Assembly: GCF_041248615.1 (NCBI RefSeq) | Contig: NZ_CP158426.1 | Reading direction: 5' to 3' (one strand) | DNA from: Escherichia coli | GTDB lineage: Bacteria > Pseudomonadota > Gammaproteobacteria > Enterobacterales > Enterobacteriaceae | DNA: 64,000 bases | Shown here: positions 27,649 through 30,353 of the stretch, piece by piece | Numbering within the stretch: the first letter of the stretch is position 1 | How the letters are laid out: every line of letters starts with the position of its first letter | Position numbers and translations under genes: made by a program | The notes under the pieces: model-generated | The model's database searches: none | The model's input: only the letters and a program-made list of their open reading frames with translations | Told to the model about the DNA's origin: nothing

Positions 27649-28830
27649 TTAGCGTTCAACGATCGCGATGCGGCGGTTATAGATATTCATCAACAGCGAG
27701 ATAGTCAGGCTGATAATCAGATAGACCGACATGGTCATGGCTATCGTCTCGATGGCTTGCCCCGTCTGGTTCAGCACGGTGCCAGCAAACAGCGAAACCA
27801 TATCCGGATAGCCAATCGCGGCGGCAAGAGAGGAGTTTTTGACGATGTTGAGATACTGGCTGGTTAACGGCGGAATAATCACTCGCAGTGCTTGGGGAAT
27901 AATGACCTGGCGTAGCGTAACCGGGTTGGGTAATCCCAGTGACCGTGCCGCTTCATGTTGACCATAAGGCACTGCCTGGATCCCAGCGCGGATAATCTCG
28001 GCGATAAATGCAGAGGTATAAACCGAAAGCGCCAGCGTTAAGGCTGCCAGTTCAGGAATTAAAACCATCCCGCCACGGAAGTTGAAGCCTCGTAGGGCTG
28101 GAACATCCCAGTGTAGTGCTGCGCCAAAAAGCCATTGCGCCAGTAAAGGCAAACCTATGATCAACATAACGGCGACCGGCCAGGTTCGGCGCAATTGTCC
28201 GGTCTTTATCTGGTACGTTTTATTAAAACGGAATAGTCCAACAGAAATGGCTATAGCAATAACAACAGTCACGATAAACGCAATAAATCCGTCTCCCAGC
28301 TGCGGTGACGGAATATAAAGCCCACGATTGCTCAAAAAGGCCAGATCAAACGCGCTCACAGCCTGGCGTGGTCCGGGTAAATTGCGCAACACGGCAAAGT
28401 ACCAGAAGAAGATTTGCAGCAGCGGCGGAATATTACGGAAGATCTCAATATAAATTGTGGAAAGCTTTCGTAGCAGCCAGTTATCCGAAAGTCGCGCCAG
28501 ACCGATAAAGAAGCCCAGAACAGAAGCGAATACAATACACAATGCAGAAACCAGTAGCGTATTGAGTAAGCCAACAATGAAAACGCGTCCGTAGGTATCA
28601 CCCTGCTGGTAATCGATCAAATGCTGGACAATACCGAAGCCAGCGCCGCGATCCAGAAAGGCAAAACCTGAAGTAATGCCACGATTACTGAGATTCGTCA
28701 CAGTGTTGTGAAATAGCCAACCAACAATGCCAACAACAGCAACAACGGCAAGGATCTGGAATAACCAGGCGCGAACCGTAGGGTTGGCAAAGGAGAGTGA
28801 GCCTTTAACGGTTGAGCGGCGATGAGACAT
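27649..28830 (-). CDS. yhdX: amino acid ABC transporter permease
   Basis: 393 aa from MSHRRSTVKG...; multi-TM permease. Confidence 0.92.
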   Translation of the reverse strand: MSHRRSTVKGSLSFANPTVRAWLFQILAVVAVVGIVGWLFHNTVTNLSNRGITSGFAFLDRGAGFGIVQHLIDYQQGDTYGRVFIVGLLNTLLVSALCIVFASVLGFFIGLARLSDNWLLRKLSTIYIEIFRNIPPLLQIFFWYFAVLRNLPGPRQAVSAFDLAFLSNRGLYIPSPQLGDGFIAFIVTVVIAIAISVGLFRFNKTYQIKTGQLRRTWPVAVMLIIGLPLLAQWLFGAALHWDVPALRGFNFRGGMVLIPELAALTLALSVYTSAFIAEIIRAGIQAVPYGQHEAARSLGLPNPVTLRQVIIPQALRVIIPPLTSQYLNIVKNSSLAAAIGYPDMVSLFAGTVLNQTGQAIETIAMTMSVYLIISLTISLLMNIYNRRIAIVER

Positions 28831-28897
28831 AGAAACCTCGGAAAGCATAACGCTGAAGAGAGCGCCGCCGTAGCGACGCTCGTTACCTCACACCGAC

Positions 28898-29923
28898 TTA
28901 ACGCACGGGCGGCGCGTACTGAATTCCGCCGTTATTCCAGAGATTATTTTGCCCACGTTTAATTTTCAGCGGGCTTTCTGAACCTACGTTACGCTCAAAA
29001 ATTTCCGAGTAGTTACCCACCTGTTTGATGATGTTGTAAGCCCATTTATTATCCAGCTTCAGATCCTTGCCGTAATCGCCCTCTTTACCCAGCAGATGTG
29101 CCATATCGGGCGTTGCTGGATTAGCCGCTTTTTCATCGACGTTTTGCGAGTTAACGCCCATCTCTTCAGCATTCAGCATGGCGAAAAGCGTCCAGCGTAC
29201 AATTGAGAACCATTCATCATCGCCACGACGAACTACCGGCCCAAGCGGTTCATTAGAGATAACTTCCGGTAAGACAATCCATTCAGCTGGGTTGCTTAAT
29301 TTGATGCGCAGGGCATACAGTTGTGATTGATCCGAGGCTAGCGTATCGCAGCGACCAGATTCCAGTGCCTTCGCTGATTCGTCAGAGCGATCGAAAGTCA
29401 CTGGTGTGTACTTCATATTGTTTGCCTTAAAGTAATCGGCAACGTTGAGTTCGGTATCAGTACCCGCCTGAATACAGACGGTAGCGCCATCCAGTTCTTT
29501 CGCGCTTTTTAGTCCCGCTTTATCGTGAGTCAGGAAGCCAATGCCGTCGTAATAAGTGACGCCGGTAAATGCCATTCCCATCCCGGCATCGCGAGATGAA
29601 GTCCAGGTCGTATTACGGGAGAGCAAATCCACCTCCCCTGACTGTAAAGCCGTGAAGCGTTCTTTTGCAGTGAGCGGGGTATATTTCACTTTCGTGTCGT
29701 CACCAAATACAGCTGCCGCAACACCACGACAAACATCTACATCAATACCTGAAAACTTACCGTCAGCATCGGCATAAGAGAACCCAGGTAATCCATCACT
29801 GATCCCGCATTGCACAAAACCTTTTTTCTGTACGGCATCAAGCGTCGCGCCAGCATGCGCCTGATTTGCAACGGCAAGCAGCACGCTGGCGGCAGCCAGT
29901 GTGGCTATCATCATCTTTTTCAT
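28898..29923 (-). CDS. yhdW: amino acid ABC transporter periplasmic binding protein
   Basis: 341 aa with N-terminal signal peptide MKKMMIATLAAASVLLAVANQAHA; solute-binding protein fold. Confidence 0.92.
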   Translation of the reverse strand: MKKMMIATLAAASVLLAVANQAHAGATLDAVQKKGFVQCGISDGLPGFSYADADGKFSGIDVDVCRGVAAAVFGDDTKVKYTPLTAKERFTALQSGEVDLLSRNTTWTSSRDAGMGMAFTGVTYYDGIGFLTHDKAGLKSAKELDGATVCIQAGTDTELNVADYFKANNMKYTPVTFDRSDESAKALESGRCDTLASDQSQLYALRIKLSNPAEWIVLPEVISNEPLGPVVRRGDDEWFSIVRWTLFAMLNAEEMGVNSQNVDEKAANPATPDMAHLLGKEGDYGKDLKLDNKWAYNIIKQVGNYSEIFERNVGSESPLKIKRGQNNLWNNGGIQYAPPVR

Positions 29924-30004
29924 AATGCTTCCTGTGAGGCGAAAATTATCGTTATAGGACGTTTGGGAAACGTCTTTTACCTGTCTGTGGCCATCCTCTT
30001 ATAA

Positions 30005-30019
30005 GCAAAAGTAGTGCCA
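30005..30019 (-). promoter_or_regulatory. candidate sigma-54 promoter for yhdWXYZ
   Basis: minus-strand reading TGGCAC-TACTT-TTGC fits the -24/-12 consensus (GG and GC correctly spaced), about 80 bp upstream of the yhdW start. Confidence 0.6.
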
Positions 30020-30108
30020 GTTTTTGCGCACGATTTCGCGTCGCAATAAGCTGAGTGTAGACAGGAAATAATAAAAACAGCGCCCCGCAATGGTGCGAAA
30101 ATGAAACA

Positions 30109-30127
30109 TGCGCCACATTTTGGCGCA
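30109..30127. promoter_or_regulatory. perfect 7-5-7 palindrome TGCGCCA-CATTT-TGGCGCA (NtrC-like enhancer candidate)
   Basis: seen directly; lies about 100 bp upstream of the candidate sigma-54 promoter; a second partial dyad cgcaatggtgcg at about 30084-30096. Confidence 0.45.
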
Positions 30128-30353
30128 AAATATTTACGCGTTTTTTACTAAGCAGAATAATGATTGTTAGCGTGAGTATAATTCTGGTGTGAAGTGTGAA
30201 AATTAAATTGATGCGTTATTTCGAAAGCAGCGAAATAATGCGATATAACATGCTAAATCAGCAGGGAATTAGCCAGCAGAATATAGCAATATTTTATCTT
30301 ATGGTGAGATACTGTATCGTTAAACAGAGCGCGGTACTCCGCGCTCTGTTCAG

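What the first reader, a model, noticed from the sequence alone, without database searches (positions are those of the whole stretch)
30000..30130. Sigma-54 promoter plus perfect upstream dyad in front of the yhdWXYZ amino-acid ABC operon
The minus-strand TGGCAC-N5-TTGC sits about 80 bp upstream of yhdW, with a perfect palindrome TGCGCCA-N5-TGGCGCA and a second partial dyad about 100 bp further upstream. This geometry is what is expected for an enhancer-dependent (NtrC-type) nitrogen-regulated promoter. It is probably known biology but is clearly legible in the sequence.
Basis: partly seen in the sequence, partly recalled or inferred. Interest (0 to 1): 0.3.

Follow-up and report, generated by a model that had tools for sequence, protein, structure and literature searches.

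The report
Known nitrogen-regulated yhdW sigma-54 promoter

Summary
An exact TGGCAC-N5-TTGC lies at 30019..30005 (minus strand). The predicted start is 70 nt before the yhdW ATG. The perfect dyad TGCGCCA-N5-TGGCGCA is at 30127..30109, and a second NtrC-like dyad at 30097..30081.

The window is E. coli. From the dyad to the ATG it differs from K-12 by one base. Published K-12 ChIP-seq shows sigma-54 on this motif and NtrC at this promoter in nitrogen-starved cells, and yhdWXYZ is an accepted NtrC-regulon member.

New detail from 79 orthologous loci:
- The -24/-12 element is present in all 79.
- The two dyads keep a fixed 30-bp spacing. They sit at -96/-126 or -107/-137, one helical turn apart, never between. 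The longer class matches glnAp2.
- The dyads do not covary, so they behave as protein half-sites rather than hairpins.
- The palindrome is perfect only in E. coli.

The region also holds conserved parts the NtrC/sigma-54 model does not explain:
- a -10-like block, CTACACT;
- a covarying hairpin next to the -24 element;
- an upstream sigma-70-like -10;
- a leader block complementary to GcvB region R3.

No mapped transcription start or NtrC footprint could be retrieved.

The parts
30004..30020 (-). Sigma-54 promoter yhdWp, CTGGCACTACTTTTGCT. The -24 GG is at 30018/30017 and the -12 GC at 30006/30005.
   Evidence: Only exact match in the window. TGGCA[CT]-N5-TTTGC is present in 79 of 79 orthologous loci, with a variable spacer and invariant hexamers. 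Sigma-54 ChIP-seq peak OS34 falls on the identical K-12 motif.
29993..29993 (-). Predicted sigma-54 transcription start, 19 nt downstream of the motif centre. It gives a 70-nt leader.
   Evidence: Uses the convention of PMC4591121. The same convention places the glnAp2 NtrC sites at exactly -140 and -108. The start is not mapped experimentally.
30109..30127 (-). It is centred near -125/-126.
   Evidence: I6. It scores 12/14 to NtrC half-sites with a 5-nt spacer and 10/14 in the canonical 3-nt frame. The conserved form is TTTTGCtCt.attTGTGGCgca. There is no covariation between the arms. The 19-bp frame scores better in 36 of 63 distinct orthologous site pairs.
30081..30097 (-). Proximal NtrC-like site B, CGCACCATTGCGGGGCG, with canonical 17-bp spacing. 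It is centred at -96.
   Evidence: Scores 10/14. In most genera the left half is a perfect TGCACCA. The centre lies at -96..-98 or -107..-109 in all 79 loci.
30066..30077 (-). T-rich tract TTTTTATTATTT between the enhancer and block C. It is a possible bend or an Lrp/IHF landing site.
   Evidence: Conserved as a T-rich run. It is deleted in Buttiauxella, with the total enhancer distance compensated. Lrp ChIP lists yhdW as a direct target.
30053..30065 (-). Block C, CCTGTCTACACTC. It is nearly invariant and its role is unknown. It resembles a sigma-S/sigma-70 -10 element (CTACACT).
   Evidence: It is absent, together with hairpin D, only in the Cedecea-like clade. The IHF consensus does not explain it.
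30024..30046 (-). Inverted repeat D, TTGCGACGCG-AAAT-CGTGCGCAA. It abuts the -24 element.
   Evidence: It folds in nearly all orthologs, mean z -2.2. Own arms give -10.65 kcal/mol against -7.65 for swapped arms, 0 of 2000 permutations as low. 76.9% of cells are paired against 66.5% in shuffles, and 37 against 16 double-change cells. There is no strand preference. RNAalifold on the MAFFT alignment found nothing.
29924..29992 (-). yhdW leader. It holds the conserved block CCACAGACAGG (ACAGACAGG at 29988..29980), the hairpin GACGTTT-CCC-AAACGTC (29979..29953), ATAACGATAA, and the Shine-Dalgarno AGGAAG (29933..29928).
   Evidence: hairpin 2 is 77% paired, 21 against 10.5 double-change cells.
28898..29923 (-). 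yhdW, an intact 341-aa periplasmic amino-acid-binding protein. It is a pseudogene in K-12.
25770..28848 (-). yhdX, yhdY (permeases) and yhdZ (ATPase), the rest of the operon.
30175..30202 (-). Candidate upstream sigma-70 promoter: TTTTCA, 16-nt spacer, TATACT.
   Evidence: The -10 aligns with a conserved nATATT in most genera. No transcription start data were available.
30323..30350 (-). Hairpin just after the yhdV stop codon, AACAGAGCGCGG-N4-CCGCGCTCTGTT. It probably terminates yhdV, which would insulate yhdW from yhdV read-through.
   Evidence: I1; flagged terminator-like on the + strand only.

Best explanation
This is yhdWp, the sigma-54-dependent promoter of the yhdWXYZ polar amino-acid ABC transporter operon, together with its NtrC enhancer.

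RNA polymerase carrying sigma-54 sits as a closed complex on the -24 GG / -12 GC element at 30020..30004. Under nitrogen limitation, phosphorylated NtrC binds two weak dyad sites 30 bp apart, centred near -126 and -96. There it assembles into the active oligomer, reaches the polymerase by looping the intervening DNA, and uses ATP to open the promoter. The resulting mRNA has a leader of about 70 nt.

Shown by published K-12 data: sigma-54 occupancy of this motif, NtrC occupancy of this promoter region in starved cells, and induction under nitrogen limitation.

Inferred here: which bases NtrC contacts, the start site, and the looping geometry. Each site has one good and one poor half-site. That fits a low-affinity enhancer that fires only at high NtrC-phosphate.
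For: - The -24/-12 match is exact, the only one in the window (0.17 expected), and present in 79 of 79 orthologous loci.
- The sequence differs from K-12 by one base across this stretch.
- Sigma-54 ChIP-seq peak OS34 falls on this motif.
- NtrC ChIP-seq peak 17 comes with RNA polymerase binding and induction.
- yhdW belongs to the NtrC-3 expression module.
- The NtrC scan was validated on known K-12 sites: glnAp2 at -140/-108, glnHp2 at -121/-108, nac at -152. The same scan finds yhdW sites at -126 and -96.
- Both sites are conserved as blocks in 46 non-redundant orthologs.
- Their distance to the promoter takes only two values one helical turn apart: 30 loci at -96..-98 and 49 at -107..-109. 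At least three independent rearrangements preserve this.
- The long class reproduces glnAp2 geometry.
- The dyad arms do not covary. This fits protein half-sites and argues against hairpins.
Against: - No footprint or mapped start was found. ChIP peaks are 80-bp windows that sit on the promoter rather than the dyads.
- Site scores are only 10/14 in the canonical frame, and 28 such sites occur in the 64-kb window.
- Site A fits NtrC half-sites better with a 5-nt spacer, which none of the reference NtrC sites showed.
- The right halves carry an invariant non-consensus TGTGGC / GGGC.
- A yhdWp-gfp fusion was among the weakest of the sigma-54 promoters tested.
- A yhdW promoter-lux fusion was assayed in LB and responded to lomefloxacin. 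This hints at other promoter activity in the region.
Confidence: 0.88

Rival explanations
1. NtrC uses only site B (or B plus unrecognised weak sites). Dyad A, with its 19-bp span, is the operator of a different dimeric regulator that modulates the promoter.
For: - Site A has a 5-nt spacer, whereas every reference NtrC site scanned has 3 nt.
- The 19-bp frame scores better than the canonical frame in 36 of 63 distinct orthologous site pairs, and worse in 6.
- The invariant TGTGGC and the GTT beyond it are not NtrC consensus.
- Lrp ChIP also reports binding at yhdW.
Against: - Both halves resemble NtrC half-sites at 6/7 each. The TGGCGCA variant also occurs in a site scanned upstream of astC.
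- The fixed 30-bp spacing to site B and the phasing shared with glnAp2 fit a pair of NtrC dimers.
- I could match no other known regulator motif (own knowledge only).
Confidence: 0.12
2. The two dyads act as RNA hairpins with U-rich tails. They would be tandem terminators or attenuators of transcripts reading in from yhdV or from an upstream sigma-70 promoter, rather than protein sites.
For: The consensus scan flags both as terminator-like on the minus strand: TGCGCCAAAATGTGGCGCA followed by TGTTTCATTT, and the site B region followed by CGCTGTTTTT. A conserved -10-like element lies upstream.
Against: - There is no covariation. 70.6% of cells are paired, equal to the shuffle mean, with 7 against 5.9 double-change cells.
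- The central pair of dyad A is broken in 42 of 49 sequences, and three of the seven site B pairs are broken in most sequences.
- The stems are short and the tails are interrupted.
- NtrC occupancy is documented at this promoter.
Confidence: 0.04
3. The sigma-54 site is mostly a poised, weakly productive complex. Most yhdW expression would come from sigma-70 or sigma-S type promoters in the same intergenic region (TATACT at 30180..30175, or CTACACT at 30060..30054), with NtrC acting mainly as a switch or repressor of those, as at glnAp1.
For: - yhdWp-gfp activity was low despite a perfect core promoter.
- A yhdW promoter-lux fusion was assayed in LB, where NtrC is expected to be inactive, and responded to lomefloxacin.
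- The -10-like elements are conserved.
- Relative to a start predicted from CTACACT, sites B and A would be centred at -42 and -72 (inference).
Against: - yhdW, yhdX and yhdZ co-vary with rutABCD in an NtrC module under nitrogen limitation.
- RNA polymerase and NtrC are recruited on starvation.
- The -24/-12 element is invariant across genera.
- No start-site evidence for either sigma-70-type promoter could be retrieved.
Confidence: 0.1

Closest known systems
glnAp2 of E. coli glnALG (the NtrC/sigma-54 paradigm)
   Same: A sigma-54 -24/-12 core with two NtrC dyads about three helical turns apart, upstream of the promoter. In most genera the yhdW sites sit at -107..-109 and -137..-139, almost exactly the glnAp2 positions of -108 and -140. 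A candidate sigma-70 promoter lies upstream of the NtrC sites, as glnAp1 does.
   Different: The sites are weaker: 10/14 against 12-13/14. In E. coli and Citrobacter the enhancer is one helical turn closer. Site spacing is 30 bp, not 32. The distal site fits a 19-bp dyad better. A conserved -10-like block and a covarying hairpin sit between enhancer and promoter.
rutAp (rutABCDEFG) and other weak-site NtrC promoters
   Same: rutA falls in the same expression module as yhdW. Its sigma-54 promoter has a single 10/14 NtrC-like site at -142. Both look like low-affinity enhancers.
   Different: rut has its own repressor, RutR, and a different intervening region. No shared extra motif was seen by eye.
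glnHp2 (glnHPQ) NtrC/sigma-54/IHF promoter
   Same: It drives an amino-acid ABC transporter from a sigma-54 promoter with upstream NtrC sites at -108 and -121. IHF-assisted looping at glnHp2 is established knowledge.
   Different: In yhdW an IHF consensus between enhancer and promoter is no better than chance in most genera. The glnHp2 sites overlap, whereas the yhdW sites are 30 bp apart.
aapJQMP general amino-acid permease of Rhizobium leguminosarum
   Same: It is the homologous transporter (YhdW is an AapJ homologue) and is likewise induced by nitrogen limitation (cited in the 2026 preprint).
   Different: The regulatory DNA is unrelated and was not examined here.

Membership tests
Sigma-54 (RpoN) dependent promoter | GG and GC doublets exactly 10 bp apart within TGGCAC-N5-TTGC, oriented toward a gene | tested here: met
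   Exact match at 30019..30005, the only one in the window (0.17 expected). It lies 96 nt before the yhdW ATG and is kept in 79 of 79 orthologs.
Sigma-54 (RpoN) dependent promoter | Sigma-54 occupies the site in vivo | tested here: met
   Published ChIP-seq peak OS34 on the identical K-12 sequence. This is a literature result, not a new measurement.
Sigma-54 (RpoN) dependent promoter | Transcript 5' end about 12 nt downstream of the GC, and loss of transcription in an rpoN mutant | not testable with these tools
   The promoter is listed as 'predicted' in EcoCyc. The start-site data sets I tried could not be read or lacked the locus.
NtrC-dependent upstream enhancer | Dyad sites matching TGCACCA-N3-TGGTGCA | tested here: inconclusive
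   Two sites score 10/14 in the canonical frame. Site A scores 12/14 only with a 5-nt spacer. Reference sites score 11-13/14 with a 3-nt spacer.
NtrC-dependent upstream enhancer | At least two sites about 100-150 bp upstream, on one face of the helix relative to the promoter | tested here: met
   Centres are at -96/-126 in E. coli. Across 79 loci only -96..-98 or -107..-109 occur for site B, and the A-B spacing is fixed at 30 bp.
NtrC-dependent upstream enhancer | NtrC occupancy and NtrC- or nitrogen-dependent expression | tested here: met
   Published NtrC ChIP-seq peak 17 with induction and the NtrC-3 expression module. These are literature results on a K-12 sequence that differs from the window by one base across this stretch.
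NtrC-dependent upstream enhancer | Base-resolution protection of the dyads by NtrC-phosphate | not testable with these tools
   No footprint was found in the searchable literature.
IHF-assisted sigma-54 promoter | A WATCARNNNNTTR site between enhancer and promoter | tested here: inconclusive
   E. coli has ACTCAGCTTATTG, with 1 mismatch. At the same position orthologs mostly have 2-3 mismatches, similar to the best hit in random 75-nt segments.
Dual sigma-70 / sigma-54 promoter pair of the glnAp1/glnAp2 type | A functional sigma-70 promoter upstream of, or overlapping, the NtrC sites | tested here: inconclusive
   TTTTCA-16-TATACT lies at 30202..30175. Its -10 aligns with a conserved nATATT. 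No start-site data were available.

The most novel reading that the evidence does not exclude
The yhdV-yhdW intergenic region may be more than an NtrC/sigma-54 cassette. A separable conserved unit lies between enhancer and promoter. It consists of the -10-like block TCTACACT followed immediately by a hairpin whose arms covary. This unit could be a second promoter of the sigma-S or sigma-70 type, whose transcript begins with a protective 5' stem-loop, and on which NtrC sites B and A would fall at about -42 and -72. A further conserved -10 lies upstream, paired with a CRP-type site in most genera. The leader carries a 9-nt block perfectly complementary to the core of GcvB region R3. If so, promoter choice and a small RNA would both set transporter output.
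Probability: 0.25. Interest if true: 0.45.

Novelty: already known. Interest (0 to 1): 0.15.

Why it matters
It matters little as a discovery. The promoter, its sigma factor and its activator are in the literature and in EcoCyc.

The work adds a base-level model of the enhancer: two weak sites, helical-turn quantised spacing, and glnAp2-like geometry in most genera. It also lists conserved elements that the standard model does not explain. These give concrete handles for anyone studying how this transporter is controlled in strains and species where yhdW is intact. That has some current relevance, because a 2026 preprint links the Citrobacter rodentium system to asparagine binding and early host colonisation.

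Tried and rejected
- **Dyads A and B as hairpins or terminators.** The consensus scan flags them, but the arms show no covariation and the central pairs are broken in most genera. Rejected.
- **IHF site between enhancer and promoter.** E. coli has a 1-mismatch match, but orthologs are no better than random sequence. Not supported, not excluded.
- **Block C pairing with the leader or the Shine-Dalgarno region** (CCUGUCU with AGACAGG). It is energetically favoured, mean z -2.0. However, the most invariant part of block C (CTACACTC) does not take part, and lineages that lost one partner keep the other. Probably secondary.
- **RNAalifold on MAFFT alignments.** It predicted nothing for hairpin D or for the leader. 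The signal appears only with a named structure or an arm-swap test. Those structures were chosen after looking at the sequences.
- **Strand test for hairpin D.** The sense strand is more stable in 27 of 65 sequences, and G-U pairs number 52 (sense) against 97 (antisense). It is uninformative on whether the constraint is at RNA or DNA level.
- **Rfam.** Nothing near threshold.
- **Start-site and sigma-factor data sets.** Cappable-seq, SMRT-Cappable-seq, Kim 2012, Cho 2014 and Peano 2015 were truncated or lacked the locus. Zimmer 2000, Reitzer and Schneider 2001, Thomason 2015 and Kröger 2012 are not held.
- **Full-length GcvB-leader duplex energy.** It is meaningless, worse than shuffles. Only the local 9-nt match is informative.

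Full report
**What is there.** The window is E. coli chromosome. A 901-base query around the finding matches strain KE55 at 100% and is found in 5399 of 5426 complete genomes. On the minus strand the order is acrE, acrF, yhdV, a hairpin just after the yhdV stop codon, a 430-bp intergenic region, then yhdW, yhdX, yhdY and yhdZ. The four downstream products match polar amino-acid ABC transporter families: a binding protein, two permeases and an ATPase. Here yhdW is an intact 341-codon gene, whereas in K-12 it is a pseudogene.

**Checking the observation.** TGGCACTACTTTTGC lies at 30019..30005 on the minus strand. It is the only exact TGGCAC-N5-TTGC in 64 kb, against 0.17 expected. With one mismatch allowed the count is ordinary, 9 against 6.9. 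The perfect dyad TGCGCCA-N5-TGGCGCA lies at 30127..30109. By itself it is not remarkable, because the window has 13 perfect inverted repeats of this arm length and spacing. A second dyad, CGCACCATTGCGGGGCG, lies at 30097..30081, which is 30 bp closer to the promoter. The coordinates and the description are therefore correct.

**Published evidence.**
- From the dyad to the ATG the window differs from K-12 MG1655 by a single base, just upstream of the -24 element.
- Bonocora et al. (PMC4591121) list sigma-54 ChIP-seq peak OS34 on exactly CTGGCACTACTTTTGCT, oriented to yhdW, 70 bp from the gene. The promoter was previously only predicted in EcoCyc.
- Brown et al. (PMC4066584) list yhdWXYZ as NtrC ChIP-seq peak 17 in nitrogen-starved cells. 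They report RNA polymerase recruitment and induction, and count the operon among fourteen known NtrC-regulon units.
- Independent-component analyses group yhdW, yhdX and yhdZ with rutABCD in an NtrC module that rises under nitrogen limitation.
- A gfp fusion to yhdWp was built and found weak despite its perfect core.

**Phylogenetic footprinting.** One scan of species-representative genomes returned 80 orthologous loci, from Escherichia, Citrobacter, Enterobacter, Kosakonia, Lelliottia, Cedecea, Buttiauxella, Atlantibacter and others. All 79 loci with upstream DNA carry TGGCA[CT]-N5-TTTGC 91-115 nt before the ATG. The spacer varies and the hexamers do not.

**Are these NtrC sites?** I scanned for NtrC half-sites (TGCACCA and TGGTGCA) with different spacers. 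On K-12 reference promoters the scan recovers glnAp2 at exactly -140 and -108, glnHp2 at -121 and -108, and nac at -152. All have the 3-nt spacer and score 11-13 of 14. For yhdW the canonical frame gives 10 of 14 at -126 and at -96. Across orthologs the 19-bp frame scores better in 36 of 63 distinct site pairs, and the 17-bp frame in 6. The palindrome is perfect only in E. coli itself; its central pair is broken in 42 of 49 aligned sequences. The register of the distal site is therefore unresolved. Each site has one good and one poor half. That fits a low-affinity enhancer.

**Geometry.** The two sites are always 30 bp apart. The proximal site is centred at -96..-98 in 30 loci and at -107..-109 in 49, with nothing between. 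The difference is one helical turn. It has arisen at least three separate ways:
- an 11-bp difference in the hairpin loop next to the promoter;
- a 10-bp deletion elsewhere in Buttiauxella, which keeps the longer hairpin segment;
- a wholesale replacement of the intervening DNA in a Cedecea-like clade.

This is the signature expected of an enhancer that must face the promoter across a loop. The long class reproduces glnAp2 positions.

**Hairpins or protein sites?** A consensus scan flags both dyads as terminator-like. Counting pairs on an ungapped alignment of 49 sequences shows no covariation: 70.6% of cells are paired, equal to the shuffle mean, with 7 against 5.9 double-change cells. The halves are conserved independently, as protein half-sites are.

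**What the standard model does not explain.**
- *Block C and hairpin D.* Between enhancer and promoter lies the nearly invariant block CCTGTCTACACTC (30065..30053). It is followed at a fixed distance by an inverted repeat with a TTGCG/CGCAA base (30046..30024).
  - The inner arms differ between genera yet stay complementary. Own arms give -10.65 kcal/mol against -7.65 for arms swapped between species, with 0 of 2000 permutations as low.
  - On a named structure 76.9% of cells are paired against 66.5% in shuffles, with 37 against 16 double-change cells.
  - There is no strand bias, and RNAalifold on the plain alignment saw nothing. The level at which this is selected is therefore open.
  - The block and the hairpin are lost together in the Cedecea-like clade, which keeps the enhancer and the promoter. 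This marks them as a separable unit.
  - The block matches the sigma-S style -10 pattern CTAYRCT (from my own knowledge). That would place a start at about 30047, right at the foot of the hairpin. This is a hypothesis.
  - An IHF consensus does not account for the block.
- *Upstream -10.* TATACT at 30180..30175 aligns with a conserved nATATT. Most genera other than E. coli have a perfect CGTGA-N6-TCACA about 25 nt before it.
- *Leader.* It is conserved in blocks and has a modestly supported hairpin. Its most conserved block, ACAGACAGG, is perfectly complementary to nt 153-161 of GcvB. That is the core of the single-stranded region R3, defined as nt 148-174 and mutated at nt 154-158 by Coornaert et al.. 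Only 0.5% of random 70-nt segments do as well, and 65 of 79 orthologs keep at least 9 nt.

**Limits.** No mapped 5' end or NtrC footprint could be retrieved; the data sets I tried were truncated, lacked the locus or were not held. The hairpin structures were chosen after looking at the sequences, and the orthologs are related. The shuffle tests therefore overstate independence.

**Verdict.** The finding is correct and already known, so it scores low. The side observations are leads, not results.

Noticed in passing
window 30024-30065 (minus strand): The nearly invariant block CCTGTCTACACTC is followed by an inverted repeat with a TTGCG/CGCAA base. Its inner arms covary across genera, and its loop carries the 11-bp length difference. 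Block and hairpin are lost together in a Cedecea-like clade. It could be a second promoter with a 5' stem-loop, or an architectural element.
   Followed up: partly
window 29980-29988 (minus strand), in the yhdW leader: ACAGACAGG, the most conserved leader block, is perfectly complementary to GcvB nt 153-161, the core of pairing region R3. At least 9 nt are kept in 65 of 79 orthologs. yhdW does not appear as a GcvB target in the searchable literature.
   Followed up: partly
window 30175-30202 (minus strand); L046 2687-2702: A sigma-70-like promoter, TTTTCA-16-TATACT, lies upstream of the NtrC sites. Its -10 aligns with a conserved nATATT. Most genera, but not E. coli, carry a perfect CRP-type CGTGA-N6-TCACA about 25 nt upstream of it, an odd distance for CRP activation.
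   Followed up: partly
window 30213-30241: The dyad GCATTATTTCG-N7-CGAAATAACGC has 11-nt arms and is perfect in K-12. It lies about 220 bp upstream of the sigma-54 start. It appears specific to Escherichia, occupying roughly the region where other genera have the CRP-type site.
   Followed up: no
window 29953-29979 and 29924-29952 (minus strand): The leader holds the hairpin GACGTTT-CCC-AAACGTC, with some compensatory changes, and then the invariant ATAACGATAA and CGCCACACAGGA around the ribosome-binding site. The two CACAG..AGG blocks in the leader resemble each other.
   Followed up: partly
window 28898-29923: yhdW is intact here (341 aa) and in the 80 orthologous loci, whereas K-12 MG1655 annotates it as a pseudogene. 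Regulatory conclusions drawn from K-12 concern an operon that lacks its binding protein.
   Followed up: partly
L064, L065, L069, L072, L076 (Cedecea-like clade): The DNA between the NtrC-like sites and the sigma-54 promoter is entirely different in these loci, yet the enhancer distance stays in the short class. The leader is about 10 nt longer.
   Followed up: partly
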